The translations under genes and the position numbers were made by a program. This document shows, piece by piece, positions 2,558 to 51,274 of a DNA stretch of 64,000 nucleotides. Numbering within the stretch: the first letter of the stretch is position 1; every line of letters begins with the position of its first letter. Under the pieces are notes generated by a model. It saw only the letters and a list, made by a program, of their open reading frames with translations. It did no database searches and had not been told where the DNA came from. Location: positions 18,290,001 through 18,354,000 of the forward strand of contig CM120642.1 of the NCBI GenBank assembly GCA_051362555.1, in the 5' to 3' direction. The DNA comes from Lingula anatina (lineage: Eukaryota > Animalia > Brachiopoda).

Positions 2558-5500
2558 ATGTATCAGCGTGCCTTCTGGCTTCCGTTGTTCCTTGCAGTCC
2601 TCTTAGTCTCTGAAAGCACAGGTAATTTTTTTATATAAATTGATAATATTTTATCTTTTGATACACCGTAAAGTGGATCGTTATTAATCCCCGTCTTTAA
2701 AATAAACAAACAAATCAATAAAACTGAAGCGTCAACGTAAAGGTAGAACTTAGTATTAACACCTTTAGCTCATGGCAAATAAGCAACGTGACTTTTTTAG
2801 TTCCAAGTCAATCTCCTGACACAAACAAATGCCGATTTTAATGGGTTTTGACTGAGAACTGCAATTTCAGAAATCTTACCTAAGTGCCTTCTTGTTAACG
2901 CTAACGATGATAAACTGTCACACAGAAAAAATTGATACTTTTTTGTTCTAGAACCATATACACAACTTCAATTTGTAACATTGGTTTTGAACCTTTGACT
3001 CGGGCATATCGTGAAATAGCTTGAGTGAAAAAGCTTCCAAAGTATTGAATGCGTACTTTTAGACAAACAGTCCAGGAATTTGGTGAAAAATTGTGCATTT
3101 TTTACCTACAAGCATGAAATTTGACACACCTATGGACAATGAAATTCTAAGCAAATTTGGATATATGGGCATGTCTGAAAATTCCAAAATGGCCGTCAAA
3201 TCCAAGATGGCCACCAAAATACCTTTTCAAATTAAAACTTCAAGTACATAGTCTTCTACTGACTTAAAATATCATATAAAGGTTAGAAAACACCATGGTA
3301 TGAATCCTTCAGGTGTATAAAATCCAAAATGGCCGCCAAAAGTAAAAAAGCAGACCATTTATTCAAGATATCCATTAGAATGGTGAATTCATCAAGCACT
3401 TAAAACTACAAGCATAAAATTTGGCACGTTTGTGGAAAATGAAATTCTGAGCAAGTTTGGATGTATGGGCATATCCAAAAATTTAAAAATGGCCCCCAAA
3501 TCCAAGATGGCCTCCAAAAATACGGGTCCTTATTAAAACTTCAAGTATATAGTCTTTTAAGGGTTTAAATATCATACAAAGGTTAAAAAACACCACAATA
3601 TGAATTCAGAATCAATATCTGCTTCTTTAGGTGTATTAAATCCAAAATGGCCGCCAATAGTAAAAAGCATTCTACTAATCCAAGATATCCAGCAGAGTGG
3701 TGAATTTATCAAAAACTACAAGCATGGCATTTGGCACGTTGTAAAACAGGATTCCAAGCACTTATTGATGTATGGGCATGTCTAAAAATTCCAATATATG
3801 GCCCCTAAATCCAATATGGCCGACACAAATACCCGTTCAAATTAAAACTTCAAGTATATAATCCTATAATAGCTTAAAGTGCAGGTTTTGGGTATGGGGG
3901 TCAATTTTGGGGATCATTAGAATACATTTTAAACATTCAATATTTACACTTACTTAACTCCTATGTCAGTCATATTACGTGATATTGCCCGTTTTAGTGA
4001 TGTTTCTCCGGGAGTAGCCGAGTACACACCGGAAAAGAACGGAAATTAATCAATGACGCGTTTTACGTCAATGGTAGACACTTCGTCGATTCCAAGATGG
4101 CGGACATCATAGAAACCCTTCCAGGCGCTAGCGATTCAGAATTTGAAATTTCTGACGATAATTCGGATGCTGGTTCAGTTTCTCAGGAAAGTACGCTTTC
4201 AGATGGCAGTTACAGTGAAAGCGTACCGTTTATTTCCGTTCAGGGATATCAGTTTGAGCCTAGGAAACGTGAAAGAGTTGGGCCTCTCCCCGAGAATGAG
4301 AGCGTTAACACGGAGGCACAAAGAGTCGGGAATACAGAATGGTGAGTGTTTTTATTATTCTTCAGTGCCGGCATGGTGCTTTAAAATTCAATGTTTTAAG
4401 ATTTAATTGGGCAACTAAATGATATTGAAGTGAAATGCAAAGTTATTTAGAAAGAGTGCAGTCCCTTAGAGTGCAGTCCCCTTTTCGTCCAAATTTCTGT
4501 TTTACATCTGTAGTTCAACAGACTAGATATCTATCTACTGCACTAGGAGCAGTAGCCTTCAACCTCGCTGTATCTTGAGTTTTAGATAGGTAAATATTTA
4601 GAAACACTTATCCGCACCGTTCCCCGTCGTGGCTCAAACTTCACTCTGTTTACACCCCCCCCCCCCCCCCCCCCCAACAGACACCATGTTGTGTAGGACT
4701 TATGACCCCAGATCGGAGATCAGGAAGTGCTTCCGGCAAGATGAAAATAATAGAATATGCATCGGTAAATGTTTTCTTTTTAATTTACTAGTGTCATTGC
4801 TTTTTACAGGTGTGAATGTGGTCATTGTTCAGCTATGACTACAGAGGCAGAAAGTCGCTGTTGTCATGAAATTCCATAGGTGAAAAACTAGCGGAGGAGG
4901 GCGGTGTTGATTGCATTATCATGCACCCAGGATTTGGGCAAGGCTGCTTAAATCCATATGCCTTGGAAATTGCATATTTACATCACAGGCAACAATATGG
5001 TGCAATTCCTGAATCTCACAGGGCAAATCAGGCTGAGTAAGGATTCTTGTTTTGAAATAATACCACAATTAGCGTGAATTGAAAATTCTATATTATTTTT
5101 TCTTTTACACACCATTGAAATTTATAGATAGCTTTTAAATTATCTCAATTGCAAAAATCTATAATACTTTATTTTTATTTAGTGTCATGAAACTTAATGG
5201 GCTTTTCTGGTTTATTCTTTCAGAAAGTATCGTTACATTGCCTATCGCCAAGTGGTGCGGTGGTGCTGGGGCTATTTGGGTAAGCACCGCTTGTGCAGTT
5301 AGCAAAATAAGAAACACTTTTACAACCAATGGACATTACATGGGTTTCAGATTGCCCAACTTGAGATAGAAGAGAACTCATGGCACCTTAAATGACCTGA
5401 AGTTTAATGTTCTTACTGACCTATCCTGGACATCATGTTACAAGAGTCTTCATTTGTGCTCAATTGGAAATATGTACAGAAAAAGTAAATTTAAGAACCT

Positions 5501-8500: not shown

Positions 8501-11500
8501 GTTTTTCTTTGCTCATAAATTTTCACTAAATTCTCAGTAGCCATTACTGCGAATGTACTAAATCCATTTCTTGAAATAAGAAGCTTTTCTAATTTACTTT
8601 TGAAGCATAAGATAACATCATAACATTACGGAGTGCAAATGTGCCCCTTCTTTTAGTACTTTACCAATGCAAAACACCAAATTGTTGAGACCTGTATGTT
8701 TGATTAGCTGTCATTTTTGTTATATTTGTGAGCATTTGATGAAGCGCCATGCACTGATCTAGCTGAAGAATCATAACCAACAGACAAAATTGGTACACCC
8801 CAAGCTTTTTTATATTTGCCTATTTAAGGCTAAGTTATTCTGGTGTTTCTTTCACATTTTATGGATTTTGCACAATACTTTTTTTCTTAGAAAGGGGGAG
8901 TCACTCATGAGTGCCATATAAGTAGATCGCTAACTGGGAATTGATGTAATTGAGAATCCAGAGCAAAAAGCCAAACTGCTTATGTTGGTTCATCAAAAGA
9001 AGGACTGTTTTCAGTACATAATAAATGTATCATGCTTGATGTTTTTTTTTTTTAACTCTGTAGAATAGCTCCTGCACAGGTAGAAATATTCTGATTATAC
9101 AGGTAGTTGTAAAGCCCACATGCCTATTCACGAGTGATTACAATTCAATAATTGTGGACCGCTGACTTTTGGAGGCCATTTTGGAAATTTAAAACCTTAA
9201 GTGGCAGATACTTATACTACATACATACTATGGTATTTTCTAACCATTAGATGATATTTTTATTAAAGACTATACAAATAACTTTCACCTTGAAAGGGTA
9301 TTTTGGGGGCCATATTGAAATTGACTGCCATATTGGAATTTTCAGACATGCCCCTATATCCAACGTTGCTTAGAATCATGTTCTCCACAACTGTGCCAAT
9401 TTTTATGCTTGTAATTGTAAGTGCTTGATGATTTCACCAAACTGCTGCATATTTTGAGTAAGTAGACTGCTTATTTTACTTTTGGAGGCCATTTTGGAAT
9501 TCTATAACCTGTAGAAGCGGATATTGATAATTCATTCATAGCATGTTATTTTCTAGCAATAAAATGATATTTTAAACCATTATAGGACTATATATTAGAT
9601 GTTTTAATTTAAAAGAGTATTTGTGGTGGCCATATTGGATTTGGCGGCCATACTGGGATTTTCAGACATGCCCATATATCCAAAAAGGCTTAGAATTCCA
9701 TTATCTACAAATTTCATGCTTGTAGGTAAAAAACGCACAATTCACCCTTTTTTTCTGCACCAAATTCTTGGACTAAGACGCTCATTATAAACATAAACCT
9801 TTTTGCGCTAGTGGTCCATCCTCAGAAAAGTGAACATTGGAGCCACAGAACTGAAGCACAAATTTTGTGTCCTATTTGCATAATTTTGGCATGCCCCATT
9901 ATTTTCGTTATTTTATACTATGGTTCCCTCAAATGTGGAAAGAAATCAATAGTAATTAAAAATTATATCAAACACATATGCAGATATTAAACAAAATGTG
10001 TGTCACTAAATGGGGCTGTGCATTAGCGGCCTGAATACTCATCATTATCTACATATACAATCATCAGCGGTAACACTAGCAGCAATAACAGTGCCATTTT
10101 AAAACTGAAACGTATAATATTTGGGGAAAAAAATCCTGACAAAAAGTAAACGTTTCATTACAGCCGTCCTTAAGGGGCTCTGGTCGTTCAATCAAGCCAC
10201 ATACACGCCAGGAAACTCATTCAGCGATAAGTCAACGCAGAATAATAAAGCAATCATCAATTCGGGATCTACGGCAACATTTGGTTCTGGATCTGGAACA
10301 GGGATAAAATTATCATCCGGTGCCTATATCTCCGTGTCCAACACTGATGGGGCATTCAGTAGCATGCTTGGAAGCTTTGCCGTGGTAATGGCGATAAAAC
10401 CAACGGCACTGCAGCCGGCCACTCTGTTTGAGTTCGACAGTGATTATGGATCCGTATACGGATCCAAAATAGAAATGGTTGCGGATCCGGCAGGATCGCT
10501 GAAAATCTACGCACCGCCGCCTATCTATGGTGAAATCAATGCAAGAACTGTTCAGGGGATTCTGAAACGTCGCAGCTGGAACTATCTCACCATTTCCTAC
10601 GATTACCAGACAGGATCAATGAAGATTTACAGCGGGTCCGATTTAGTCAGAGACTATCAACTCACAGCGTTCCCAACATCTAATACAAAAGGGTTTCGGG
10701 TAGGAAAAGGGTTCACGACGTCTTCAACGTTTACAGGCCAAGTGGCGTGCGTGCAGGTGCACGACCAACCCATTACGACCAGTGCCAGCCTTAAAAAGAT
10801 GTGGCAACTCTGTGGATATGAAGGTAGGTCACATATTTCTCTTTCTTGAAATACCTCTTTGCAATTTTTGACATGCTTTACTTGTGATAAAGGCGATGGA
10901 CCTTCTTTGTTGATATTTCTTCAATGCATTATGTATTATATTGGTTGCACTGATATTTAATACTAAACTAATGACATATTCTATTTAGATTTATTTTCAT
11001 ATTTTAGTCCCTTCTGTTCGGGATTCTCTACCTGCAGGTAAGACTATTTTAAGTCTTCTTGACTTGTGTTAAAGTGTCTCACTCCTCGGTTGCACAGTTA
11101 TTTTCTCTGTATTATGATCTACAACTCAGATATACAAATTTAATGTCACCATGCAACAAAATATTGTCAAATATCGCATTTTGTCTTTGGCATTTCATGC
11201 ATTTATAGAAAAAGTAAGTTGAAGGCTTCCTTGACGCTGCCACGGTAGACATTTGCAAATGATCGTCAGCGCACTGAATACGTTTTTGTTATATTTGTAC
11301 AAAGCAATTAGCATGTATCTCGTGGCATCACAGTCCCATACAAAGTCATGTATTAATTGAATAAATTTCATGAAAAATTGTTATTATCATTGTATCCTTA
11401 CACTTCATAAGTTTAGAACGCCGTACTAATATGTGTTCATGAACTTGTTTGTAACCTATTTGCAAATCTTGTTTTACTCAAATATTATTGCAATAATATA

Positions 11501-14500
11501 GCATCAGGTTGCCGTGGGTGATATGCTTTATCATGACCAGTATTTTTATTTATCATAATAAACATTTTGCATAATTATCATCACAGAATCTTCTATCAAA
11601 AGGTTGCCTAACGCCTATAGACCTCACCTTTGCTCTGGACGGTTCGTCTAGCATGAAGGACGAGCTCTTCAACAGCCAACTGGACTTCGTGCAAAACATG
11701 GTCGCCACGTTCGCTGTCGGGCAGTCTAAAGGTACCGCTTCGATCTTTTTTTCCGTCTTACTTTAGGTTAGAAAACATACCTATATACATATTTTATGTC
11801 TTAATTGTCGCCAAAGTTTTTTCAGTAATTGCGTTATCAAAGACCGGTGTACAAAGTAGAAAAGACATTGCCACTATCTACTACTGGTATATCTTTTATG
11901 GAATGCAAAACCATAACACCTGTTTGCAAGTTGTTGCTTGTTTCCCTCGGAGGTTATCTAAACTTAGGACAAACCATAGGGTAGCTAAGTTAAGTTGCTT
12001 TTATTATCAGTGGCGGATCGAGAATTTTGTGAAGGGGGAGGGTCCAGTATTTTAGAGATTGACAGGCCTCGGATTGCAAGGCCGACCTTCACCCCCTTGG
12101 CGTCAGGTTCCGGACACGCTGGAGGACCCGAAAAAATTGGTGTTTTGGAGGGGAAGTGGCGCCATGTGGTACGGTTTAGAACTATGATTCAGCTAGATAT
12201 TGTTTGAAGCGTTTTTTTAAAATCTGAAATCAAAGGAGGGAGAGGGTCAGGACCCTACTGACAACCCCTAAATCCGCCAATGTACAGACTTGACATTTAA
12301 TATGGAATATTTTTTTCCAAATCATTTTTTATCAGTTTTTTCCTATTTTGCTGACTAATAAATGAAAACACGGATTAAAATCGTGTTTTAATAACTTTTA
12401 ATTATCTCTTTGATGTCATTGTGACATCAGTTCATTAATGGAATTCACCAGAGAAGCAAACAAAAACACATTGCCTATTCTATGTCATACGAAAACCTTT
12501 AAAAGAGATATTTTGGACCTCCATATTTTCCAAATTATTGTCTGTAAAAGAGTTACACACTCCACAAAGGACCCTCATGTCAGTGTCTAGTCAGAGCAGT
12601 GGTCGCTGTTACGCCTGTCCTCTTCTGGCTGCTACCAGCGCTCTCAAGTGGCAAGGCATTCCTTGGGATATGTTTTTAAATTTCAATCTGGAATAGCATT
12701 CCAGGCACCGGTCAAAATCTGTCTAATTTGGTTCCGTTTTGTTGTAGGACATGTAGGCCATTGATTCGGCCAGTAATAGCCTACCCACATATTGTCTGTG
12801 TGGTTCAAATATGGCGATTTTGATGACCAAGGTAGCTGCTCATTCCCTTGGTTCTGTAAGTAATCTGCTTTTAAAAGTGCTCTGTGTGAACGGGCAATCT
12901 CACCATGCCACCTAAAATTGTTCCTAAGTTGCCCCCTATCAAATGATAGCCAAGTGGTTCCCAGATTATTTCTTTATTTGATCTGGTTCAGGTTTTCGTT
13001 GATGACTACCAGTGGTGTTTTTGCACCAATATGGTATCCACTCCAAATACTGACGCTTTTAATGACTTTAGTCACTTCAGACGCGGCACACGCTTCGTCA
13101 TTGGCCTCCTCTGGATGTCTGTAAACTCTGTTTGGACTGTTGAGCGGTACAGGTGAAATCTGACCTCAACAAAGAAAGCCACGAGATTTCAGGGTTCAAC
13201 CCAGAAACAGTCAAGGTCTCCAATTCATTAGAGAAACATACAGCGATGTTTTGCTGTTTACAGTGGGTTCCTCGGAGGTCGTCTGGTATTCTAACCTGCT
13301 AAAACCAGTTTGGTGTTCGCTAAGGGCCTTGAAAAATGCGTTTTGGTGGCAATTTACCCCTCATTCTGAACAGACTGGGTGGTTTTTGTTTAGTTGCAAC
13401 AGCATATCCCGAAAGACAGTGGGTCCTGTACCCTGGTGGTAAGATTTCAATACATAGGGTGTGGCCTCTGTGTAGGTACATCAGTCTGGGCATTACTCTA
13501 TAAAACTGTGCGGACCGTTTCTTTTGGCACAATTATCTGTCTGGCAATGCCTGTATTTTTCGCGCCATTCTGCCACAGATTAACAAATTTGTAAAGCACT
13601 GCATAGCTCATTTTACACACTGCAAACCCGACCACTTGCATGCAAAATTTCAAATTCTTCTATGCAGTAGTTGCCGACATATGGATAGTTTTTTGACAGA
13701 ACCATGCTTTGCCAAAACCAAGCCTTGACCTGCCCAAAGGAGCACTACCAAATTAAATCACTGCATATTACATAATGCAGCAGCGCAACAAACCTGGTAT
13801 TCAGTTAATTAGTAGCGACACACCTGACTACACACTTCTCCATGTGAAAAAAGAACGCATTTTCACCTAGGCATACATTCGAAACTGAAATATTCCATAT
13901 TAAATGTCAAGTCTGTATTATCATAACATTGCATATTTTCTATTATTTTAGATCACGTTGGATTTGTAAGCTACGGCACCAAAATTGGCACATCTGTGGG
14001 TCTTAACAAGTTCAAAACAACGGCGGAGGTACTTGAAGGTCTTGGAAAATTAACCTCTCCTAAAGGGCTGACTAACACCTATCTGGCGATAGAAGATATG
14101 ATCAAGACACTGAATAATGGTAAGTTGTGCATGTTATATTACTTACACGTCCGCCCTCCTGTTCGCTCGCATGCAAGCAAACAAACACACCACAGACACA
14201 CACACATAGTAAAATGGATGTTCAACCCGCAAACTAGAATTAGATATATTTTTGAAAACTTTGAATGTTGAAGCTTTTGTATCTTCATTCTAACACAAAA
14301 AATAATAAATTTACATTTTCTCAAATCACCTTTTCATTGTGAGAGAGTCCTAAGATTCATAATAATTCATTTCTCTCTCTCTCTCTCAAGGTGCACGCAC
14401 TAACGTTCGCAAAATAGCCATCATTTTGACGGACGGACAATCTCATAATTCGAAACAAACAAACAAGGCCGCCAAAAATCTACGTGGTTTGGGAGCTGAG

Positions 14501-17500
14501 CTCTACGTCATTGGTGTAGGGGTAAAAGACACAACGGGAGTGACGAAGTTGGCGGGAGATGCCTCCAGAGTATTTACCACGACCGATTTTAAGAATGCGC
14601 TAGATCTGAAACGTAATATTGGATCAGCTGTTTGCGGGGGTAAGTCTTGGTGGAAATGACCCTAATAAATTCTTTGTCGTGCCACACTGTCCACACACTG
14701 GAGTTCCGAATACCGGTCTATATAAAAACTTGTGGAAAATATACATGTGCAAGGTCCCATGTATGTTTTATATTGTACACTTGTGCCATTTTTCCATAAG
14801 TTTAATTTGTGTTATACCTACACTTGCTGGTCTTGTCCATCTATAGAGAATATTCCCAGAGACTATTGTCCTAACTTTGGATCGATCTATCTCTAAGGGA
14901 GTTCTCAATAAATTGCTATCAAGTTAAGCGGCCTAGATGTCTCGCACGCCCACTGAAGCTGTTAGAGGGCAATTTACTATCGTTTACTGCTTCAGAGCGT
15001 GTTAGACATCTAAGCCGTTCAAGTTAAAGGCAACCTAACGAGAAATCCCTTGGAGATTGGTCGATCCAGTTAGGTCGATCTAGGCATGGGAACCCAGTCT
15101 ATGTCTTTGCAGTAAACGCATCACTTTAGTTACCTATTACTGTATTTCTTGTTGCTCTGACATACAAGTCTTAAACATCTTGTTTAACCATTTGTATGAA
15201 TAATGCAATTGTAAAATACCAGTCTGCCTCACGTTTCTCTCTTTACATCACTAATAAGAACACACTGTCATGGAAAGAGTTAACACACTAGTGGAACAAA
15301 ACTTGAGAACATATGAATATTTGCATTAGTTTTGTTGTAGATAAATGTTCCACAAATGTGTGTAGAAATGGTGGCACGTGTCACATGGGACCTGGTGGTA
15401 AAGAACGCTGTGATTGTGCCCCCGTCTTCACTGGCGTCAAGTAAGATTTCACTTTCTTTCTTTGTCTATTAGGCCACACTTTTTTATTTTTATGGATGAC
15501 ATCCTCTGGGTACCCCAAAATCGGTGCGAGAGGGCGAAAAAAAAAAAAAAACAGTCCAAAAAAAAAAAAAAACTGCTTAAGTAAAGGAATGCTGTCAGTA
15601 CACAGCTGGAAACACAAATTTAACCACAGAAACACGTATCAAACTAACAATATGTCTTTATCCATGCTCTCAAAATATTAAAGCATTGTGAATACTTCGT
15701 AGAAATGTAAAAAAAGTCATGAATTGATATACTTCATATTACCAAATCTATTTAAGGTTATTTCATGCATTCATTTGGTATAGCAATCAATAAAACAAAT
15801 ATCAATCAAACAGTGTGTCTTTATTTGTATTCTCAGAATATTAAAACATTTTGAACACTTCACAGAAATGTTTAAAAAATGATGCAAAGATATGCTTAAT
15901 ACTACCAAATCTATTAAAGGTCATTTCAGACGATGCCATTTTGTCAACTTCAACTCACACGAAGCAGCTAAACTGTCAGGTGGCCTGTCCGACCTTCAGC
16001 CCACCAAATACCTCGACGCCCTTGTCGACCCTTTTTTCGCTACAGAAAACCTGGTATTAATGTGCTGCTTTATACAGAATGTCACAGAAATGTTTCGGCC
16101 GCCGCCAGCCTTTCGCACAATTGTAAAAAGGTGATATCTCCATGCCCAATATCAATGGCATACCAATCCAAAACGATGGCGCCCGTTCTCTTTATGACTT
16201 TTATTGTTGTGTAATTTGAAAGTAATCCTAGAGATGAATTTGACAGCAAAGTGGCCGCATTTCCACGTGGCGAAAATACGCATGCGCAGAAAGCTCATTT
16301 CCTTGCAAATTCAATAACAACGTTTGCGACAACCGACTTCGTTGGGGGCTGGGGGGGAGGGCATTTTTTTTTTTTTTTTTTTTTGGAGAACGGGCGAAAA
16401 TCCGTGCGCGCGCAGGATGTCATCCATAAAATTAAAAAAGTGTGGCCTTATGTTAAATAAAAAAAGACATCACTAAATTTCCTAAAGACTGACATTTGAA
16501 TCTTGGCAAAAGCGTGTTTTTTGAGCGAATGGTCAAAAATGGTTCGGAATGTGTGACAAAAAAGTACCAAAAGACTCCCAGTTTATGATCTCTTAATGGG
16601 AACAAATGTAAAAAAAAGTACGCCATGACTTACTTGAATATTCTATTGTGTGATTCAGATGTGAGACAAACATAAACCAATGCGGCCTCAACAACCCATG
16701 TTTGAATGGTGCAACATGTAAGATGGATCTCAAGACTGCTGCCGTCGTCTGCTCTTGTCCGCCTGGGTTCAGTGGGAAATTGTGTAATATCAAAGATCCC
16801 TGCGCTAGTCTTATCTGTGCCAATGGTGGAAAGTGCCTAGCAAATGGAAAGAATGCCATTTGCAACTGCCCGCAAGGGTTCGCCGGTGATAGATGCCAAA
16901 CCATAATTTACTGTGCCTCACACCCTTGTCAAAATGGCGGGAGCTGTCAGGAGGGCAATGGGAAATATTCTTGTGTCTGCCAGCGAGGGTTTTCTGGGGT
17001 GAACTGTGAATTGCCCATTGACCATTGTTTGTCATCACCCTGTAAGAACGGTGCAAGCTGCTCCAGCGTTCCCGGTCAGTACATTTGTGTCTGTGCTGCC
17101 GATTTCACGGGTAAAACATGTGATAAGAAGATAGACAATTGCGCGTCCAGACCATGTCAACATGGCGGCGCCTGTGTGGATGGAATCAATGACTTTTCTT
17201 GCAAATGTCCAAATGGATTTAAAGGGAAAACGTGTAGCGAAATCGATGGGTGCCACTCAAACCCTTGCCAGAACCAGGGTCTCTGTGTCACGGTCGACAT
17301 ATTAGGAGGATTTAAATGTACGTGCCGTGCAGGATTCACGGGAACCAAATGTGAGAGCAATATAAACGAATGTGCATCGCAGCCGTGTGTCAATAACGCT
17401 ACATGTGTGGATGGTGTGAACTCGTTTTACTGCCAGTGCTTCCCGGGCACCGTGGGATCAACTTGTAGCATAGTCACAGACGGCTGCTGGTCAAGCCCGT

Positions 17501-20500
17501 GTAAGAACGGCGCCACGTGTAAAAGGAGGTTTGGAGGCTACACATGCCAATGTCCACCAAAATATACCGGCAAAAATTGCCAAACTGAGATCAATTTCTG
17601 CGCTTCGAACCCATGTCAGAACGGCGCCGCGTGCATTGACGGGAAATCCGGATTCAGCTGCCGGTGTCTCAAACACTTCACAGGGCCTACGTGTGGGACA
17701 GCGGTGGATTACTGCATGTCTTCGCCGTGTCGTAATGGAGGCACATGTCAACGAAAACTTGGCGGCTACACATGTAAGTGCGGTGCAGCATTTCAGGGGG
17801 TTCACTGTGAAACTGCAGTCGACTTTTGCCGATCTTCACCGTGTTCAAACGGTGGCAAATGTACAAGTCAGCCGAGCGGGTACCAATGCGTTTGTCCTGC
17901 GTTTTACACCGGCAAACAGTGTCAGACGCAGATAAATTTCTGCAATTCTTCTCCATGCCTGAACGGAGCAGCGTGTAACAGTGTGTTGGGAGGTTACAGT
18001 TGTAAATGCAGTCCTTTTTACACCGGTAAACAGTGCCAGACGCAGGTAGATTTCTGCAAGTCGTCCCCATGTTTAAATGGAGCAACTTGTAACGGTGTGT
18101 TGGGCGGTTACAGTTGTAAATGCAGTCCTTTTTACACCGGTAATCATTGTCAGACGCAGATAGATTTCTGCAAGTCGTCCCCATGTTTGAATGGAGCAAC
18201 GTGTAACAGTGTGTTGGGCGGTTACAGCTGTAAATGTGGGCCTTTTTACTCCGGTAAACATTGCCAGACGCAAGTAGATTTCTGCAAGTCGTCCCCCTGT
18301 TTAAATGGCGGTATATGTGTCCCGCAGCTTGGTGGCTTTAAATGCACTTGTCCTTCTTTCTACATGGGTAAAACATGCGGTACTCAAATCAATTTTTGTC
18401 AGTCTAACCCCTGCCAGCATGGGTCCACGTGTCAGCCTAAACTTGGAGGTTATTCTTGTAGTTGTAACAACCATTACACCGGTAATCGTTGTCAGACGCA
18501 GATAGATTTCTGCAACTCTTCCCCATGTTTGAACGGAGCAACATGTAACAGTGTGTTGGGGGGTTACAGTTGTAAATGCGGTCCTTTTCACACCGGTAAA
18601 CATTGCCAGACGCAAATAGATTTGTGCCAATCATCCCCATGTTTGAATGGAGCAACGTGTAACAGTGTGTTGGGAGGTTACAGTTGTAAATGCGGTCCTT
18701 TTTACACCGGTAAACATTGCCAGACGCAAGTAGATTTCTGCAATTCTTCCCCTTGTTTGAACGGAGCAACGTGTAACAGTGTGTTGGGCGGTTACAGCTG
18801 CAAATGCGGTCCTTTTTACACCGGTAAACATTGTCAGACTCAAGTAGATTTCTGCAAGTCGTCCCCATGTTTAAATGGCGGTATATGTGTCCCGCAGCTT
18901 GGTGGCTTTAAATGCACGTGTCCTTCTATCTACATGGGTAAAACATGCGGTACTCAAATCAATTTTTGTCAGTCTAACCCCTGCCAGCATGGGTCCACGT
19001 GTCAGCCTAAACTTGGAGGTTATTCTTGTAGTTGTAACAATCATTACACCGGTAATCATTGCCAGACGCAGATAGATTTCTGCAATTCTTCCCCATGTTT
19101 GAACGGAGCAACATGTAACAGTGTGTTGGGGGGTTACAGTTGTAAATGCGGTCTTTTTCACACCGGTAAACATTGCCAGACGCAAATAGATTTTTGCAAT
19201 TCGTCTCCATGTTTGAACGGAGCAACATGTAACAGTGTGTTGGGGGGTTACACTTGTAAATGTCCTGTTTTCTTCACCGGTAATCAATGTCAGACGCAGA
19301 TAGATTTCTGCAAGTCGTCCCCATGTTTAAATGGAGCAACTTGTAACGGTGTGTTGGGCGGTTACAGTTGTAAATGCAGTCCTTTTTACACCGGTAAACA
19401 TTGCCAGACGCAAGTAGATTTCTGCAATTCTTCCCCTTGTTTGAACGGAGCAACGTGTAACAGTGTGTTGGGGGGTTACAGTTGTAAATGCAGTCCTTTC
19501 TACACCGGTAAACATTGCCAGACGCAAGTAGATTTCTGCAAGTCGTCCCCCTGTTTAAATGGCGGTATATGTGTCCCGCTGCTTGGTGGCTTTAAATGCA
19601 CGTGTCCTTCTTTCTACATGGGTAAAACATGCGGTACTCAAATCAATTTTTGTCAGTCTAACCCCTGCCAGCATGGGTCCACGTGTCGGCCTAAACTTGG
19701 AGGTTATTCTTGTAGTTGTAACAATCATTACACCGGTAATCATTGCCAGACGCAGATAGATTTCTGCAATTCTTCCCCATGTTTGAACGGAGCAACATGT
19801 AACAGTGTGTTGGGCGGTTACAGTTGTAAATGCAGTCCTTTTTACACAGGTAAACATTGCCAGACGCAAGTAGATTTCTGCAATTTTTCCCCTTGTTTGA
19901 ACGGAGCAACGTGTAACAGTGTGTTGGGGGGTTACAGTTGTAAATGCGGTCCTTTCTACACCGGTAAACATTGCCAGACGCAAGTAGATTTCTGCAAGTC
20001 GTCCCCATGTTTAAATGGCGGTATATGTGTCCCGCTGCTTGGTGGCTTTAAATGCACGTGTCCTTCTTTCTACATGGGTAAAACATGCGGTACTCAAATC
20101 AATTTTTGTCAGTCTAACCCCTGCCAGCATGGGTCCACGTGTCGGCCTAAACTTGGAGGTTATTCTTGTAGTTGTAACAATCATTACACCGGTAATCATT
20201 GCCAGACGCAGAAAGATTTCTGCAATTCTTCCCCATGTTTGAACGGAGCAACATGTAACAGTGTGTTGGGCGGTTACAGTTGTAAATGCAGTCCTTTTTA
20301 CACCGGTAAACATTGCCAGACGCAAGTAGATTCCTGCAATTCTTCCCCTTGTTTGAACGGAGCAACGTGTAACAGTGTGTTGGGAGGATACAGTTGTAAA
20401 TGCAGTCCTTTCTACACCGGTAAACATTGCCAGACGCAAGTAGATTTCTGCAAGTCGTCCCCATGTTTAAATGGCGGTATATGTGTCCCGCTGCTTGGTG

Positions 20501-22507: not shown

Positions 22508-22513
22508 AATAAA
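22508..22513 (+). terminator. Putative polyadenylation signal of EGF gene copy A (matching site in copy B at 52309-52314)
   Basis: AATAAA conserved in both paralogs and followed by a GT/T-rich tract. Confidence 0.5.
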
Positions 22514-31672: not shown

Positions 31673-31707
<35 letters not shown>

Positions 31708-32568: not shown

Positions 32569-32742
32569 GGCCTTGTTCAAAATAAGGGACTAACTAGTCC
32601 AAGGGTCAAATATGGCCGACCCACTTGAATACTTCCCCATGGGATGTTTATTCAGTGTCTATAAGAGGATTAGGCAGCATGCTTTGTAATGAGTTGCCAT
32701 ATTTGACCCTAGGACTAGTTAGTCCCCTATTTTGAATGGGGC
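32569..32742. mobile_element. Short palindromic MITE, shared with unit 2 (~57765-57938)
   Basis: ~45-bp inverted repeats ttcaaaataagggactaactagtccaagggtcaaatatggc / gccatatttgaccctaggactagttagtcccctattttgaa. Confidence 0.65.
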
Positions 32743-43259: not shown

Positions 43260-46200
43260 ATGTATCAGCGTGCCTTCTGGCTTCCGTTGTTCCTTGCAGT
43301 CCTCTTAGTCTCTGAAAGCACAGGTAATTTTTTTATATAAATTAATAATATTTTATATTTTGATACACCGTAAAGTGGATCGTTATTAATCCCCGTCTTT
43401 AAAATAAACAAACAAATCAATAAAACTGAAGCGTCAACGTAAAGGTACAACTTGGTATTAACACCTATAGCTCATGGCAAATAAGCAACGTGACTTTTTT
43501 AGTTCCAAGTCAATCTCCTGACACAAACAAATGCCGATTTTAATGGGTTTTGACTGAGAACTGCAATTTCAGAAATCTAACCTAAGTGCCTTCTTGTTAA
43601 CGCTAATGATGATAAACTGTCACACAGAAAAAAGTAATACTTCTTCGTTCCAGAACCATATAAACAAATTCAATTTGAAACATTGGTTTTGAACCTTTGA
43701 CTCGGGCATATCTTGAAATAGCTTGAGTGAAAAAGCTTCCAAAGTATTGAATCCGTACTTTTAGACAAACCTTTTACTTAGGCATTAACCTAAACATTAA
43801 CCTGTTTGCACTAGTGTTCCATCCTCAGAAAAGTGAACATTGAAGTCACATATTTTGGGTCCTATTTGCATAATTTTGGCATGCCCCATTATTGACGTTA
43901 TTTTATACTATGGTTCCCTCAAATGTGGAAAGAAATCAATAGTAATTTAAAATGATATCAAACACATATGCAGATTATAAACAAAACGTGTGTCACTAAA
44001 TGGGGCTGTGCATTAGCGGCCTGAATACCTACTCATCATTATCTACATATACAATCATCAGCGGCAACACTAGCAGCAATAACAGTGCCATTTTAAAACT
44101 GAAACGTATAATATTTGGGGAAAAATCCTGACAAAAAGTAAACGTTTCATTACAGCCGTCCTTAAGGGGCTCTGGTCGTTCAATCAAGCCACATACACGC
44201 CAGGAAACTCATTCAGCGATAAGTCAACGCAGAATAATAAAGCAATCATCAATTCGGGATCTACGGCAACATTTGGTTCTGGATCTGGAACAGGGATAAA
44301 ATTATCATCCGGTGCCTATATCTCCGTGTCCAACACTGATGGGGCATTCGGTAGCATGTTTGGAAGCTTTGCTGTGGTAATGGCGATAAAACCAACGGCG
44401 CTGCAGCCGGCTACTCTGTTTGAGTTCGACGGTGGTTTTGGACCCGGATACGGATCCAAAATAGAAATGGTTGCAGATCCGGCAGGATCTCTGAAAATCT
44501 ACGCCCCGCCGCCTATCTATGGTGATATCAATGCAAGGACTGTGCAAGGGGTTATGAAACGTCACAGCTGGAACTATCTTACCATTTCATATGATCACCT
44601 CTCAGGATCACTGAAGATTTACAGCGGGTCCGATTTAGTCAGAGACTATCAACTACCAGTGTCTTCAACATTTAATACAAATGGGTTTCGAGTAGGAAAA
44701 GGATTCTCGGCGTCCTCAACGTTTACAGGCCAAGTGGCGTGCGTGCAGGTGCACGACCAACCCATTACGACCAGTTCCAGCCTTCAAAACATGTGGAAAC
44801 TCTGTGGATATGAAGGTAAGTCATATTTATTTTGCTTGAAATACCCCCTTACCATTTTTGGAATGGTTTACTTGTGATAAAGGCGATGAACCCGTCTCCT
44901 TCTTTCTTGATATTCCTTAATGCATTATGTATAAAATTGATTTCATTGATATTTTTATATATTTTTAAAAAATGTTTTTTAAAATACCTCACCAAAGGTA
45001 TATTATATTTAAATGTATTTTTATATTTTAGTCCCTTCGGTTCGGGATTCTCGACCTGCAGGTAAGACCATTTTAAGAATTCTTGACTTGTGTCAAAGTC
45101 TCACTCCTCGGTTGTGCAATTATTTTCTGTGTATTATGTTCTTCAACTCAAATGTGCAAATTTAATGTCGCCATGCAAAAAAAATGCTATATCATGACAG
45201 TGACCGGTATTTTTATTATAATAAACATTTTGCATAGATTTCATCATAGAATCTTTTATCGAAAGGTTGCCTTACGCCCATAGACCTCACCTTTGCTCTG
45301 GACGGTTCGTCTAGCATGAAGGACGAACTTTTCATCAGCCAACTGGACTTCGTGCAAAACTTGGTCGCTACGTTCGCTGTCGGGCAGTCTAAAGGTACCG
45401 CTTCGATCTTTTTTTTTATTTATTTTTTATTTATTTTTTTTTATTTTTTTTATTTTTGCTGTCTTACTTTACGTTAGTAATCATACCTACATACATATTT
45501 TATGTCTTAATTGTCGCCAAAGTTTTTTTCAGTAATTGCGTTGACAATGACCTGTGTAAAAAGTAGAAAAGATATTACCATTATCCTCTACTGGTATATC
45601 TGTTATGGAATGCTTAATCATCACACCTGTTTGCAAGTTGTTGCTTGTTTCCATCTCGGGCTATCTAAAGTTAGGACACACCACTGGGCTGATATTATTA
45701 TCAGTGGCGGATCCAGCATTTTTGAAAGAGGGAGGGGGAGGGTCCGGTTTTTTTAAGGATTGACAGGCCTCGGATTGCAAGACCGACCTTCACCCCCTTG
45801 GCGTCAGGTTCCGGACACGCTCGAAGAGCCGAAAAAATGGTCTTTGGAAGGGAAGGGGCGCCATTTGGTACGGTTTAGAACTATGATTCAGCAAAGACAT
45901 TGTTTGAAGCCTTTTTTATCTGAAATCGAAGGAGGGAGAGGGTCAGGACCCCCCTGACACCCCCTTAATCCGCCAGTGTATTATCATAACATTGCATTTT
46001 TTATTATTTTAGATCACGTTGGATTTGTAAGCTACGGCACAAAAATTGGCACATCTGTGGGTCTTAACAAGTTCAAAACAACGGCGGAGGTACTTGAAGG
46101 TCTCGGAAAAATAACCCCTCCTAAAGGGTTGACTAACACCTATCTGGCGATAGAAGATTTGATCAAGACACTGAATAATGGTAAGTTGTGCATGTTATAT

Positions 46201-46443
46201 TACTTACACATTCGCCCTCCTGTTCGCTCGCATGCATGCACACAAACAGATACACACACACACACTCACACTACACATATAGTAAAATGGATGTGCAAAA
46301 AAATTAACCCGCAAACTAGAATTAGATATATTTTCGAAAACTTTTAATGTTGAAGCTTTTGTATCTTCGTTCTAAGACAAAAAAAATGTACACTTTCTTA
46401 AATCACCCTTGTATTGTGACAGAGCCCTTAGTTTAATAATAAA

Positions 46444-46480
<37 letters not shown>

Positions 46481-49400
46481 GTGCACGCACTAACGTCCGA
46501 AAAATAGCCATCATTTTGACAGACGGACAATCTCATAAGTCGACAGAAACAAACAAGGCCGCCACAAATCTACGTGGTTTGGGAGTAGAGCTCTACGTCA
46601 TTGGTGTAGGGGTAAAAGACACAACGGAAGTGACGAACTTGGCGGGGGATGCCTCCAGAGTATTTACCACGACTGATTTCAAGAATGCGCTAGATCTGAA
46701 ACGTAATATTGGATCAGCTGTTTGCGGGGGTAAGTCTAGGTGAAAATGACCCTAATATACTTTTTGTCGGGACAAAATATCCACACACTGAAGTTTCAAC
46801 TACCGGTCGATATAAAAAATATACATGTGCAAGGTCCCATGTATGTTTTATATTGTACACTTGTGCCATTTTTCCATAAGTTTAATTTGTGTTATACCTA
46901 CACTTGCTGGTCTTGTCCATCTATAGAGAATATTCCCAGAGACTATCGTCCTAACTTTTGGATCGATCTATCTCTAAGGGAGTTCTCACTAAATTGCTAT
47001 CAAGTTAAGCGGCCTAGATGTCTCGCACGCCCACTGAAGCTGTTAGAGGGCAATTAACTATCGTTTACTGCTTCAGTAAGCGTGCCAGACATCTAAGCCG
47101 TTCAAGTTAAAGGCAACCTAGCGAGAAATCCCTTGGAGATTGGTCGATACAGTTAGGTCGATCTAGGCATGGGAACCCAGTCTATGTCTTTGCAGTAAAC
47201 GCATCACTTTAGTTACCTATTACTGTATTTCTTGTTGCTCTGACATACAAGTCTTAAACATCTTGTTTAACCATTTGTATGAATAATGCAATTGTAAAAT
47301 ACCAGTCTGCCTCACGTTTCTCTCTTTACATCACTAATAAGAACACACTGTCATGGAAAGAGTTAACACACTAGTGGAACAAAACTTGAGAACATATGAA
47401 TATTTGCATTAGTTTTGTTGTAGATAAATGTTCCACAAATGTGTGTAGAAATGGTGGCACGTGTCACAAGGGAGCTGGTGGTAAGGAACGCTGTGATTGT
47501 GCCCCCGTCTTCACTGGCGACAGGTAAGACCTCTCTGATATCCTGAAAGACTGACATTTGTATCTTTGCAAAAACGTGTTTTTTAGAGAATGGTAAAAAA
47601 CGTTACGGAATATGTTACAAAAAAGTACCAAAAGACCCCAAGTATATGATCTCTTAATGGGAACAAATGTAAAAAAAGTACGCCGTGACTTACTTGAATA
47701 TTCTATTGTGTGATTCAGATGTGAGACAAACATAAACCAATGCGGCCTCAACAACCCATGTTTGAATGGAGCAACGTGCAAAGTGGATCTCAAGACTGCT
47801 GCCGTCGTCTGCTCTTGTCCGCCTGGGTTCAGTGGGAAATTGTGTGATATTAAAGATCCCTGCGCTAGTCTTATCTGTGCCAATGGTGGAAAGTGCCTAG
47901 CAAATGGAAAGAATGCCATTTGCAACTGCCCGAAAGGGTTCGCCGGTGATAGATGCCAAACCATAATTTACTGTGCCTCACACCCTTGTCAAAATGGCGG
48001 GAGCTGTCAGGAGGGCAATGGGAAATATTCTTGTGTCTGCCAGCGAGGGTTTTCTGGGGTGAACTGTGAATTGCCCATTGACCATTGTTTGTCATCACCC
48101 TGTAAGAACGGTGCAAGCTGCTCCAGCGTTCCCGGTCAGTACATTTGTGTCTGTGCCGCCGATTTCACGGGTAAAACATGTGATAAGAAGATAGACAATT
48201 GCGCGTCCAGACCATGTCAACATGGCGGCGCCTGTGTGGATGGAATCAATGACTTTTCTTGCAAATGTCCAAATGGGTTCAAAGGGAAAACGTGTAGCGA
48301 AATCGATGGGTGCCACTCACACCCTTGCCAGAATCAGGGTTTCTGTGTCGCGGTCGACAAATTGGGAGGGTTTAAGTGTACGTGCCGTGCAGGATTCACG
48401 GGAACCAAATGTGAGAGCAATATAAACGAATGTGCATCGCAGCCGTGTGTCAATAACGCTTCATGTGTGGATGGTGTGAACTCGTTTTATTGCCAGTGCT
48501 TCCCGGGCACCGTGGGATCAACTTGTAGCATAGTCACGAACGGTTGCTGGTCAAGCCCGTGTATGAACGGCGCCACGTGTAAAGGGAGGTTTGGAGGCTA
48601 CACATGCCAATGTCCACCAAAGTATACCGGCAAAAATTGCCAAACTGAGATCAATTTTTGCGCTTCGAACCCATGTCAGAACGGCGCCACGTGCATTGAC
48701 GGGAAATCCGGATTCAGCTGCCGGTGTCTCAAACACTTCACAGGGCCTACTTGTGGGACAGCGGTGGATTACTGCGTGTCTTCGCCATGTCGTAATGGAG
48801 GCACATGTCAACGAAAACTTGGCGGCTACACATGTAAGTGCGGTGCAGCATTTCAGGGGGTTCATTGCGAGACTGCAGTCGACTTTTGCCGATCTTCACC
48901 GTGTTCAAACGGCGGCAAATGTACAAGTCAGCTGAGCGGGTACCAATGCGTTTGTCCTGCGTTGTACACAGGCAAACAGTGTCAGACACAGATCAATTTC
49001 TGCAATTCTTCTCCATGTTTGAACGGAGCAACATGTAACAGTGTGTTGGGAGGTTACAGTTGTAAATGTGGTCCTTATTACACCGGTAAACATTGCCAGA
49101 CGCAAGTAGATTTCTGCAATTCGTCTCCATGTTTGAACGGAGCAACATGTAACAGTGTGTTGGGGGGTTACACTTGTAAATGTGGTCCTTATTACACCGG
49201 TAAACATTGCCAGACGCAAGTAGATTTCTGCAAGTCGTCCCCATGTTTAAATGGCGGTAAATGTGTACCTCAGCTTGGTGGCTTTAAATGCACGTGTCCT
49301 TCTATCTACATGGGTAAAACATGCGGTATTCAAGTCAATTTTTGTCAGTCTAACCCCTGCCAGCATGGGTCCACGTGTCAGCCTAAACTTGGAGGTTATT

Positions 49401-51274
49401 CTTGTAGTTGTAACAATCATTACACCGGTAAACGTTGCCAGACGCAAGTAGATTTCTGCAATTCGTCTCCATGTTTGAACGGAGCAACATGTAACAGTGT
49501 GTTGGGGGGTTACACTTGTAAATGTGGTCCTTATTACACCGGTAAACATTGCCAGACGCAAGTAGATTTCTGCAAGTCGTCCCCATGTTTAAATGGCGGT
49601 AAATGTGTACCTCAGCTTGGTGGCTTTAAATGCACGTGTCCTTCTATCTACATGGGTAAAACATGCGGTATTCAAGTCAATTTTTGTCAGTCTAACCCCT
49701 GCCAGCATGGGTCCACGTGTCAGCCTAAACTTGGAGGTTATTCTTGTAGTTGTAACAATCATTACACCGGTAATCATTGTCAGACGCAGATAAATTTCTG
49801 CAATTCGTCTCCATGTTTGAACGGAGCAACGTGTAACAGTGTGTTGGGAGGTTACAGTTGTAAATGTGGGCCTTTTTACACCGGTAATCATTGTCAGACG
49901 CAGATAGATTTCTGCAATTCTTCCCCTTGTTTGAACGGAGCAACGTGTAACAGTGTGTTGGGCGGTTACAGCTGCAAATGTGGTCCTTTTTACACCGGTA
50001 AACATTGCCAGACGCAGATAAATTTCTGCAAGTCGTCTCCATGTTTAAATGGCGGTATATGTGTACCTCAGCTTGGTGGCTTTAAGTGCACGTGTCCTTC
50101 TATCTACATGGGTAAAACATGCGGTACTCAAATCAATTTTTGTCAGTCTAATCCCTGCCAGCATGGTTCCACGTGTCAGCCTAAACTTGGAGGTTATTCT
50201 TGTAGTTGTAATAATCATTACACCGGTAATCATTGTCAGACGCAGATAGATTTCTGCAATTCGTCTCCATGTTTGAACGGAGCAACGTGTAACAGTGTGT
50301 TGGGCGCTTACACTTGTAAATGCGGTCCTTTTTACACCGGTAAACATTGCCAGACGCAAGTAGATTTTTGCAAGTCCACTCCATGTTTGAACGGAGCAAC
50401 TTGCAACAGTTTGTTGGGGGGTTACACTTGTACTTGCGGTCCTTCTTACACCGGTATAAATTGCAAAACGCAGATAGATTTCTGTAATTCGTCTCCATGT
50501 TTGAACGGAGCAACGTGTAACAGTGTGTTGGGGGGTTACAGCTGTAAATGCGGTCCTTTTTACACCGGTAAACATTGCCAGACGCAGATAGATTTCTGCA
50601 ATTCTTCCCCTTGTTTGAACGGAGCAACGTGTAACAGTGTGTTGGGGGGTTACAGCTGTAAATGCGGTCCTTTTTACACCGGTAAACATTGCCAGATGCA
50701 GATAGATTTCTGCAATTCTTCCCCATGTTTGAATAAGGCTACCTGTAAAAGTAACCTCGGTGGCTATCAGTGTATATGTCCTTCGTTTTACACTGGCAAG
50801 CACTGTGGGACCCAAATCGATTACTGTCAGTCCAACCCATGTCAGCATGGGTCCACATGCGTTCCGAAGCTTGGTGGCTACAGCTGCACCTGCCCGGCCA
50901 CCCACACGGGAACCAACTGCCAAACCCGTGTCGACCCTTGCGCCAGCTCCCCCTGTCTTCACGGCGGTAACTGTATCACACGACTCGATGGAACCTTCCA
51001 GTGCACGTGCCAAAAAGTGTGGCATGGGGCCCGCTGTGAGCAATGCCTGTGTCAGAACGGAGGTAGATGTGACTATAGTTCCAGTGACGGTCACGTGTGT
51101 CGCTGCAAGGCGGGGTTCATCGGGACGAAGTGTGAGACTGATGAGGACGAATGCGACAGCTACCCATGCTGGAAAGGCACATGTATTGACTTGGTTAACG
51201 ACTATAAATGTAACTGTGACCCTGGTTACACAGGTAAAGACTGTGATGTCCCGCCTGGCAGTTTAATTGGTTAA
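43260..51274 (+). CDS. Secreted LamG/pentraxin-like + VWA + 32xEGF protein, copy B, ~1651 aa. Exons 43260-43323, 44156-44815, 45032-45061, 45266-45394, 46013-46180, 46481-46729, 47424-47523, 47719-51274
   Basis: Same signal peptide, splice sites and first seven exon sizes (64, 660, 30, 129, 168, 249, 100 nt) as copy A. Total 4956 nt, open frame, MIDAS intact. Confidence 0.9.
48985..50705 (+). repeat. Coding tandem array of 114-bp EGF modules (15 modules, order A2-BC-A1-BC-A2-BC-A4)
   Basis: Same A/B/C module types as copy A, read from the 47762..51274 translation. Confidence 0.92.

What the first reader, a model, noticed from the sequence alone, without database searches (positions are those of the whole stretch)
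2558..51274. Tandemly amplified family of secreted LamG-VWA-(EGF)n proteins with variable-length EGF stalks
Seen: two intact 8-exon paralogs, plus the upstream region of a probable third, with architecture signal peptide - LamG/pentraxin-like - VWA (intact MIDAS) - 42 or 32 EGF, and no TM, LNR or ankyrin region. The ORF track shows only fragments and misses the signal-peptide exon. Established: VWA, LamG and EGF domains are typical of invertebrate extracellular, adhesive and shell-matrix proteins (Pif, SVEP1, fibropellins, mussel mfp-2), but this exact order matches none of them as I know them. Inference: a lineage-specific, copy-number-variable family (adhesive, mucus, biomineral matrix or recognition) with a variable binding head on a length-tunable stalk.
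Basis: partly seen in the sequence, partly recalled or inferred. Interest (0 to 1): 0.8.

Follow-up and report, generated by a model that had tools for sequence, protein, structure and literature searches.

The report
Secreted EGF-rod tethers, tandemly duplicated
An animal genome, likely the lamp shell Lingula, holds tandem copies of a spliced, expressed gene for a predicted secreted protein with a likely sugar- and matrix-binding head on a rod of 42 or 32 EGF modules, which likely acts as a tether in a glue or coat, like octopus egg-thread and scallop byssus proteins.

Summary
Two intact 8-exon genes encode 2030 and 1651 aa: predicted signal, lectin-like LamG3, VWA with intact MIDAS, then exactly 42 or 32 EGF, no TM. 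Contigs from public runs splice at 5 of 7 predicted junctions. Three 2026 RNA runs show almost no reads, so expression is restricted. The duplication is real: a third upstream segment follows, and each unit carries a broken Sec16-like 3' fragment that is not the expressed form. No close relative or same-order protein turned up, and the scan had not noted it elsewhere. Best reading (0.5, inferred): a one-headed, probably O-glycosylated EGF tether in a secreted coat or adhesive, working like octovafibrin, fibropellin or scallop Sbp9. The paralogs are homogenised in patches but stay diverged at head and tail tip, with dN/dS under 1. Diversifying selection and tuned stalk length are not shown; tissue is unknown. 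Lingula comes from scan notes, only partly checked. New variant of a known kind; interest 0.45.

The parts
2558..2621 (+). Copy 1 exon 1: ATG and predicted signal peptide (21 aa)
   Evidence: identical to copy 2 exon 1, whose junction is spliced in RNA-like contigs
10164..10823 (+). Copy 1 exon 2: LamG3 / concanavalin-A-like lectin-fold domain
   Evidence: Pfam PF13385 E 7.2e-8
11008..11037 (+). Copy 1 exon 3: 30-nt linker micro-exon
   Evidence: its letters stand between exons 2 and 4 in an X8 contig (table 5c)
11603..14639 (+). Copy 1 exons 4-6 (11603-11731, 13952-14119, 14391-14639): VWA domain with intact MIDAS
15341..15440 (+). Copy 1 exon 7: EGF 1
16659..21351 (+). Copy 1 exon 8: EGF 2-42 in one 4.7-kb exon, with 114-bp units of types A/B/C in 3- to 5-unit higher-order repeats; acidic calcium-type last EGF; stop
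43260..43323 (+). Copy 2 exon 1: ATG and predicted signal peptide
   Evidence: joint to exon 2 in X4
44156..44815 (+). Copy 2 exon 2: LamG3 lectin-fold domain
   Evidence: Pfam E 1.2e-7; model pLDDT 79.7; fold matches
45032..45061 (+). Copy 2 exon 3: linker micro-exon
   Evidence: both joints in X4
45266..46729 (+). Copy 2 exons 4-6 (45266-45394, 46013-46180, 46481-46729): VWA domain with intact MIDAS
   Evidence: exon 6 matches collagen VI alpha3 and mussel PTMP1 VWA
47424..47523 (+). Copy 2 exon 7: EGF 1
   Evidence: joints 6-7 and 7-8 in X4 and X8
47719..51274 (+). Copy 2 exon 8: EGF 2-32 and stop; AATAAA at 51286
24230..32900 (+). Unit 1 passenger: 3' exons of a Sec16-like gene (name recalled from C-terminal motifs, no library hit), frameshifted by a 4-nt insertion near 24280
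   Evidence: expressed form lacks the insertion (X5 all depth, X17 6 of 6 reads)
54026..55803 (+). Unit 2 passenger: Sec16-like 3' exons, cut by a deletion of about 790 bp that removes exons present in the mRNA
61708..64000 (+). Unit 3: upstream region of a probable third gene, with a 252-bp insertion at 63674-63925
10356..14800 (.). Block of retained divergence between units 1 and 2 (5-12% per 300 columns), covering distal LamG and VWA
21119..22549 (.). Second block of retained divergence (12-15%), covering the C-terminal tip and 3' flank

Best explanation
These are two expressed tandem paralogs, likely of the brachiopod Lingula, for a predicted secreted rod protein that likely works as a tether or cross-linker in a secreted coat, thread or adhesive. 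The LamG3 domain would bind glycans and the VWA domain would bind collagen-like or acidic partners through its metal site. The 42 or 32 disulfide-locked, mostly non-calcium EGF modules would form an extensible, probably O-glycosylated spacer of about 80-125 nm. The single acidic calcium-type EGF at the tip would be the second contact. Shown: gene structure, splicing, domains, fold, purifying selection, restricted expression, real duplication, in-frame repeat gains. Inferred: secretion, ligands, glycosylation, tissue, material role.
For: Architecture. The stalk unit has the cysteine positions 5/10/16/25/27/36 reported for octovafibrin, a non-calcium 29-EGF load-bearing fibre protein of octopus egg threads (PMC10336842); this spacing is also the common Notch-type one, so it is not specific. 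Scallop byssus uses a lineage-specific chimeric family with 1-49 EGF whose length tracks foot region (PMC9168380, PMC6244088). VWA exon 6 matches only collagen VI alpha3 and mussel byssal PTMP1 among solved structures (2 hits). The LamG model best matches the arabinotriose-bound domain 4 of arabinanase AbnA (Z 20.0, rmsd 2.8, 191 aligned) and trypanosome sialidase (Z 18.9). O-glucose motif in 36 of 42 and 28 of 32 EGF, O-fucose motif in 28 of 42 and 22 of 32, full calcium consensus in 2 each (motifs recalled). dN/dS 0.28 over residues 1-893 and pN/pS 0.17-0.28 among repeat units. Expression in contigs of X4, X5 and X8, and near zero in raw RNA X11, X14 and X17.
Against: No tissue is known, and nothing ties the gene to an adhesive organ. 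Octovafibrin and fibropellin have assembly domains at both ends; this protein has a head at one end only. It has no spare cysteine, unlike Sbp9, which cross-links through free thiols. Contig depth in X5 (53-94) is of the same order as the Sec16-like transcript (36), not the very high level expected of a bulk fibre protein, though contig depth is a poor measure. Tyrosine is under 4% of the stalk. A shared fold shows no ligand.
Confidence: 0.5

Rival explanations
1. Shell or biomineral matrix organiser secreted by the mantle: the head docks on the chitin-collagen-glycosaminoglycan scaffold, and the cationic EGF rod spaces sulfated glycans or apatite laminae.
For: Lingula shell proteomes are enriched in EGF, VWA and PF13385 domains (PMC4595640, PMC13425148). 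A separate 654-aa VWA+PF13385 Lingula protein group is listed there. Most stalk EGFs carry net charge +1 to +3.
Against: No LamG3-VWA-(EGF)n protein of this size appears in the part of the 2015 shell list that I read (supplement part 9). None of 7 motifs from these proteins is in the 2026 supplement. This is weak, because the gene seems absent from the protein databases, so those searches probably could not find it. No chitin-binding domain.
Confidence: 0.2
2. Soluble recognition protein (agglutinin or opsonin in mucus or coelomic fluid, or a gamete-surface recognition factor): the lectin-fold head reads foreign or partner glycans, and the paralogs are kept different in the head.
For: Amino-acid change is highest in LamG (27 of 220 residues) and in the last EGF plus tail (pN 0.139), against 19 of 460 in EGF 1-12. 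Divergence peaks under gene conversion can mark selected sites (PMC3924837). X4 and X5 hold further variants matching neither copy (11 of 27 listed X4 letters).
Against: pN/pS is below 1 in both variable blocks (0.47 and 0.60). Introns in the head block are as diverged as the exons (9-17%), and large insertions there can stop conversion neutrally. No collagen stalk, coiled coil or spare cysteine for multivalent display.
Confidence: 0.18
3. Soluble Notch-like decoy or signalling modulator: the densely O-glycosylated EGF array binds DSL ligands or EGF-recognising receptors, and the head localises it in matrix.
For: Notch-type EGF spacing, and denser O-glucose motifs than two stored Notch1 proteins by the same regex (35 of 41 and 27 of 31, against 15 of 30 and 17 of 33). 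The top EGF hits are mostly Notch, Crumbs and EYS-like.
Against: Best identity is only 33-47%. The stalk is a recent homogenised repeat with identical units, unlike the position-specific EGFs of Notch. Calcium sites are nearly absent.
Confidence: 0.07
4. Assembly artefact: the units are uncollapsed haplotypes of one locus.
For: Flanks differ by only 1-5%, near the 1.6% heterozygosity reported for Lingula (PMC4595640). Long reads and read depth could not be examined.
Against: Three copies of the upstream segment lie head to tail. Head introns differ by 9-17% and dS is 0.11. Neither Sec16-like fragment can give the expressed mRNA, so a further intact copy must exist. Both copy-like transcripts occur in one sample (exon 6 contigs with 0 and 17 differences from copy 2).
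Confidence: 0.05

Closest known systems
Octovafibrin (Octopus bimaculoides egg-thread protein; PMC10336842, abstract, passages and first part of Discussion read)
   Same: Signal peptide, lectin-type N-terminal domain, long array (29) of 38-residue non-calcium EGF with the same cysteine positions
   Different: C-type lectin at both ends drives end-to-end assembly; here a ConA-fold LamG3 plus VWA sit at one end only; no sequence orthology tested
Scallop Sbp9 / 'EC proteins' (PMC6244088, PMC9168380, passages read)
   Same: Lineage-specific chimeric family of EGF arrays of variable length (1-49 EGF); Sbp9 is 2033 aa and could not be obtained whole from the genome assembly
   Different: Calx-beta domains inserted in the array and free thiols for cross-linking; no LamG3-VWA head
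Sea-urchin fibropellins (as described in PMC10336842) and mussel mfp-2 (PMC12817120, passages read)
   Same: Secreted tandem-EGF cohesive or coat proteins
   Different: Fibropellins have a C1s-like N-terminal and an avidin-like C-terminal domain and up to 21 EGF; mfp-2 is EGF only
Matrilins and slug matrilin-like glue proteins (PMC11178922, passages read; vertebrate architecture recalled)
   Same: VWA with MIDAS followed by EGF repeats; gastropod adhesive combines lectin-like and VWA/EGF proteins
   Different: No second VWA or coiled coil here; lectin fold and VWA are fused in one chain; far more EGF
Pif/BMSP shell proteins and Lingula VWA+PF13385 shell proteins (PMC11291548, PMC13425148)
   Same: VWA and LamG-type domains in one secreted chain
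   Different: Pif/BMSP have VWA, chitin-binding and C-terminal LG domains and no long EGF array; the Lingula group is 654-673 aa and its one shell peptide is not in these proteins
SVEP1/polydom, EYS, Crumbs, Notch (architectures recalled; hits)
   Same: EGF arrays with LamG, pentraxin or VWA domains
   Different: No sushi, HYR, TM, LNR or ankyrin; LamG lies before, not after, the EGF array

Membership tests
Tandem-EGF fibre/adhesive proteins (octovafibrin, fibropellin, Sbp9 type) | Secretion signal, no membrane anchor | tested here: met
   Hydrophobic stretch only at the N-terminus; later 19-residue windows under 1.4. SignalP not run.
Tandem-EGF fibre/adhesive proteins (octovafibrin, fibropellin, Sbp9 type) | 20 or more tandem six-cysteine, mostly non-calcium EGF making up most of the chain | tested here: met
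   42 and 32 EGF, 2 with full calcium consensus in each
Tandem-EGF fibre/adhesive proteins (octovafibrin, fibropellin, Sbp9 type) | Globular assembly domains at both ends, or free thiols | tested here: not met
   Chain ends 9 residues after the last EGF; all stalk cysteines fall in sets of six
Tandem-EGF fibre/adhesive proteins (octovafibrin, fibropellin, Sbp9 type) | Protein present in a secreted fibre, coat or adhesive | not testable with these tools
   Runs are coded, with no tissue
VWA domain, integrin-I/collagen-VI class | MIDAS DxSxS...T...D | tested here: met
   DGSSS, T of GLTNT and D of ILTDG in both copies; Pfam VWA
LamG3 / concanavalin-A-like lectin fold (PF13385) | Profile match above cut-off and jelly-roll fold | tested here: met
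   33.2 and 32.4 bits against 27.6; model pLDDT 79.7, Z 20.0 to AbnA domain 4
LamG3 / concanavalin-A-like lectin fold (PF13385) | Carbohydrate binding | not testable with these tools
   Fold only; needs a glycan array
Pentraxins | Pfam Pentaxin match and HxCxS/TW signature (recalled) | tested here: not met
   No PF00354 hit up to E 1; the matching strand reads WNYLTISY; the fold is related (PTX3 Z 17.7)
Pif/BMSP | VWA followed by chitin-binding CBM_14 and C-terminal LG | tested here: not met
   No CBM_14; order is LamG3 then VWA then EGF
Matrilins | VWA-(EGF)n-VWA-coiled coil (recalled) | tested here: not met
   One VWA and no C-terminal extension
SVEP1/polydom | Sushi and HYR domains (recalled) | tested here: not met
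   No such Pfam hit, and every residue is accounted for by the other domains
Notch / Crumbs / EYS | TM with LNR and ankyrin, or LamG domains C-terminal to EGF (recalled) | tested here: not met
Lingula shell matrix proteins | Peptides in a shell proteome | tested here: inconclusive
   Not in the lists seen, but the gene seems absent from protein databases; first rows of the 2015 table not read

The most novel reading that the evidence does not exclude
The first brachiopod adhesive or thread protein (pedicle anchor, burrow lining or embryo coat), built on a new plan. One-headed, O-glycosylated EGF rods chain head to tail when the VWA metal site grips the only strongly acidic module, the last EGF, while the lectin-fold domain grips glycans. 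Selection against gene conversion keeps both ends paralog-specific, and unequal crossing-over resets rod length.
Probability: 0.15. Interest if true: 0.72.

Novelty: new variant of a known kind. Interest (0 to 1): 0.45.

Why it matters
Long tandem-EGF proteins keep turning up as load-bearing parts of marine holdfasts (octopus, scallop, mussel, sea star, ascidian), each with a different head. A review of marine adhesive proteins does not mention brachiopods (0 occurrences in PMC12817120). This gene, apparently missing from protein databases, gives a concrete candidate with a head combination not found in my searches. It also offers two natural length variants with near-identical units, so the effect of EGF number on spacing and mechanics can be tested directly. 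Existing Lingula mass spectra can be re-searched at almost no cost. As genome evolution it is a clear but familiar case of segmental duplication with patchy homogenisation and a dead passenger gene fragment.

Tried and rejected
No whole genome was held, so units beyond the window were not counted. The ESM Atlas could not read either query. Word-based homologue searches with the LamG exon (385-2000 aa; 0 of 3355 candidates) and VWA exon 6 (145-2000 aa; 0 of 192) found nothing; the tool calls this weak evidence. Single-sequence folding of LamG failed (pLDDT 31.8) and was discarded. A sequence search of solved structures with LamG gave only chance hits. Complex prediction for two copies of the LamG domain gave no verdict (score 0.00); it is no evidence either way. 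The spliced VWA could not be given to the folding or complex tools, so VWA-tip binding is untested. X1 contig depths (about 110 in the stretch missing from unit 2, 141-178 in shared stretches) fit one copy fewer, but the tool says they are no copy number, so they were not used. A tree of 45 repeat units did not separate by gene (13 label changes, 206 of 500 shuffles as low), so whole-array concerted evolution per gene is rejected; only the most recent unit gains are gene-specific (nearest neighbour in the same gene 33.8 of 43, against 22.3 shuffled, p 0.001). Positive selection on the head was rejected on pN/pS below 1. Pfam and PDB gave no match for the Sec16-like exons, so that name is recalled. 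The neurotoxin binding-domain entries among the fold hits share only the common jelly-roll fold (10-19% identity); nothing suggests a toxin. Paper searches (one search was on gene conversion) listed no description of this domain order, but most subscription journals are not covered and figures were not seen.
Full report
OBSERVATION. The window is 37% G+C animal DNA with two cysteine-rich ORFs at 16654-21348 and 47714-51271. Self-comparison shows a head-to-tail segmental repeat with periods of about 40.7 and 21 kb, the difference being insertions in unit 1. Splicing by coordinate gives two 8-exon genes with GT..AG introns and phases 1,1,1,1,1,1,2, encoding 2030 and 1651 aa without internal stops. 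Pfam finds Laminin_G_3 on exon 2 of both copies, VWA on copy-1 exons 4-6 and EGF on exons 7-8. The stalks hold 252 and 192 cysteines, exactly 42 and 32 EGF. The head has four more, placed as one likely pair per domain. MIDAS is intact. The only strongly hydrophobic stretch is at the N-terminus. The third unit matches the upstream region up to the window's end, about 500 bp short of the expected ATG.

EXPRESSION. The run search listed 20 runs of one organism, 10 holding part of the stretch, none on record as RNA. Contigs of X4 and X8 skip introns at the predicted GT..AG sites for junctions 1-2, 2-3, 3-4, 6-7 and 7-8, so they behave as RNA. Junction 5-6 is implied by one contig, and 4-5 was not listed. 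X4 holds an exon-6 contig identical to copy 2 and another with 17 differences. Of 27 listed X4 variant letters, 16 equal copy 1 and 11 equal neither. X5 holds two variants of the 3' end, with 16 and 13 differences from copy 1. Raw RNA runs X11 (12.4 million records read) and X14 (9.5 million) give no depth in the exon-only bins of the head region. At the 3' end X11 gives under 1x while the Sec16-like exons reach 14-32x, and X17 gives 0 against a weak control of 1-4x. Expression is therefore real and restricted, but the tissue is unknown.

IS THE DUPLICATION REAL? Each unit carries, 2.7-2.9 kb behind the stop, 3' exons of a Sec16-like gene (name recalled from C-terminal motifs; no library hit). 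The unit-1 fragment has a 4-nt frameshifting insertion and the unit-2 fragment lacks about 790 bp. The spliced mRNA in X5, X11 and X17 includes the exons missing from unit 2, and in X5 and X17 it lacks the insertion of unit 1. An intact copy must therefore lie elsewhere, and the segment exists at least three times. A caveat: the one listed X1 DNA contig at that place also lacks the insertion, and 24 of 35 listed X1 letters that I could map equal unit 2. The unit-1 version may be private to this assembly's individual, or dropped from the contigs. With three upstream segments in tandem and dS 0.11, uncollapsed haplotypes are unlikely (0.05).

EVOLUTION. Over residues 1-893, dN/dS is 0.28 (LamG 0.46, VWA 0.24, EGF 1-12 0.18). 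From EGF 13 on the stalk is made of 114-bp units of three types. By my motif typing, which leaves a few divergent end units untyped, they run AAABCAABCAAAABCAABCAABCAA in copy 1 and AABCABCAABCAAAA in copy 2, with pN/pS 0.17-0.28 among units. The types are shared between genes and the tree does not split by gene, but the newest units are gene-specific and some are identical. This fits in-frame gain and loss by unequal crossing-over inside one exon (inference). Divergence between units is patchy: mostly 0-6% in promoter, signal exon, the first 65 LamG residues, EGF 2-12 and the passenger region; 5-12% from distal LamG through VWA; and 12-15% at the C-terminal tip and 3' flank. Such peaks can mark sites where selection resists gene conversion, but insertions also stop conversion neutrally (PMC3924837, passages), and unit 1 has insertions in these blocks. 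pN/pS stays below 1 in both (0.47 and 0.60).

RELATIVES. HMMER with the LamG exon against 1.84 billion representatives gave 22 hits, none below 1e-30 and the top four at 21-29% identity. Eight of the 10 looked up are from amphioxus, a hemichordate and a sea anemone, and 2 are unnamed. I scanned 20 of the 22 with Pfam (P0007 and P0018 left out); none has LamG3-VWA-(EGF)n. P0002 is LamG3x3-sushi-VWA-C-lectin. The first 420 residues of the EGF exon hit 3733 proteins; the best 120 are 33-47% identical, mostly Notch, Crumbs and EYS-like, with a Lingula VWD/TIL/EGF protein on top. The spliced VWA matches 1 of 149 stored proteins (P0002) and none of those 120. Two further searches were empty. With a 14-row alignment the LamG model reaches pLDDT 79.7. 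It is a ConA-type jelly roll closest to AbnA domain 4 (Z 20.0), with trypanosome sialidase (18.9), clostridial neurotoxin-complex domains (15-19) and PTX3 (17.7) behind. VWA exon 6 matches collagen VI alpha3 and mussel PTMP1.

ORGANISM. Notes of other agents on the same genome call it Lingula or a brachiopod. I checked this only in part: the window's G+C (37.3%) fits the 36.3% reported (PMC4595640 supplement), and the top EGF hit is a Lingula protein.

MECHANISM (inferred unless a call is cited). The chain would be secreted and fold into a two-domain head on a rod of about 105-126 or 80-96 nm (2.5-3 nm per EGF, recalled). The rod is mildly cationic, mostly +1 to +3 per module, and rich in O-glucose and O-fucose motifs. 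Only EGF 8 and the last EGF have a full calcium consensus, and the last is the most acidic module (-4, -6). The head would bind glycans and collagen-like or acidic ligands, and the tip would be a second contact. This is how tandem-EGF proteins are proposed to work in octopus egg threads (PMC10336842: abstract, passages, first part of Discussion), scallop byssus (PMC6244088, PMC9168380: passages) and other holdfasts (PMC12817120: passages). I give this 0.5; shell matrix 0.2; recognition protein 0.18; Notch-like decoy 0.07; artefact 0.05. Lingula shell proteomes are rich in the same three domains but list no such protein (PMC4595640: passages and supplement parts; PMC13425148: passages, section 8, supplement searches). 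That test is inconclusive, because the gene appears to be missing from the protein databases. Figures and unread supplement parts may bear on this.

NOVELTY. It works like a known kind (secreted tandem-EGF tether or fibre proteins) but fails membership of each named family. The order LamG3-VWA-(EGF)32-42 with no C-terminal domain was not found in the database searches above, in nine topical paper searches or in the scan's own notes. New orders of these modules are common in invertebrate extracellular proteins (general knowledge; Sbp9 is a published example), so a specialist would find this interesting rather than very surprising. Verdict: new variant of a known kind, interest 0.45. The boldest reading left open, a head-to-tail chaining brachiopod adhesive, has probability 0.15 and would deserve 0.72.

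Noticed in passing
window 3069-9787: 6.7-kb insertion in intron 1 of copy 1 only, with long imperfect inverted ends (3069-3661 vs 9774-9165, 74%) and a THAP-domain ORF at 6479-6913 on the minus strand (E 9.5e-17): likely a THAP-type DNA transposon.
   Followed up: partly
window 22712-24048: A 1878-nt X5 contig (depth 52.7, 62 other letters, 28 gaps) matches this non-coding stretch between the EGF gene and the Sec16-like exons and runs on into other sequence: a transcript from a related locus elsewhere.
   Followed up: no
window 33937-34859: Unit-1-only element with about 370-bp inverted arms built from 17-21-bp subrepeats: MITE-like.
   Followed up: no
window 27485-29402 and 35653-38159: Unit-1-only arrays of 161-bp and 337-bp repeats, present as a large inverted pair.
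   Followed up: no
window 22038-22180; inverted relatives at 1537-1691, 42241-42395, 63244-63398: Very high-copy short transcribed repeat (summed contig depth over 52,000 in X1; hundreds of RNA reads) near the likely unit junction.
   Followed up: no
window 26254-26408: Glutamine-rich Sec16-like exon; reads and contigs of the expressed form carry extra or repeated letters here, so it varies in length.
   Followed up: no
window 63674-63925: 252-bp insertion about 600 bp upstream of the expected third ATG, absent from units 1 and 2.
   Followed up: partly
PMC13425148 supplement, Tables S5-S6: A Lingula group of four 654-673-aa VWA+PF13385 proteins (XP_023931458 and others) is listed as a shell protein on one weak peptide; its relation to this head was not tested by alignment.
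   Followed up: partly
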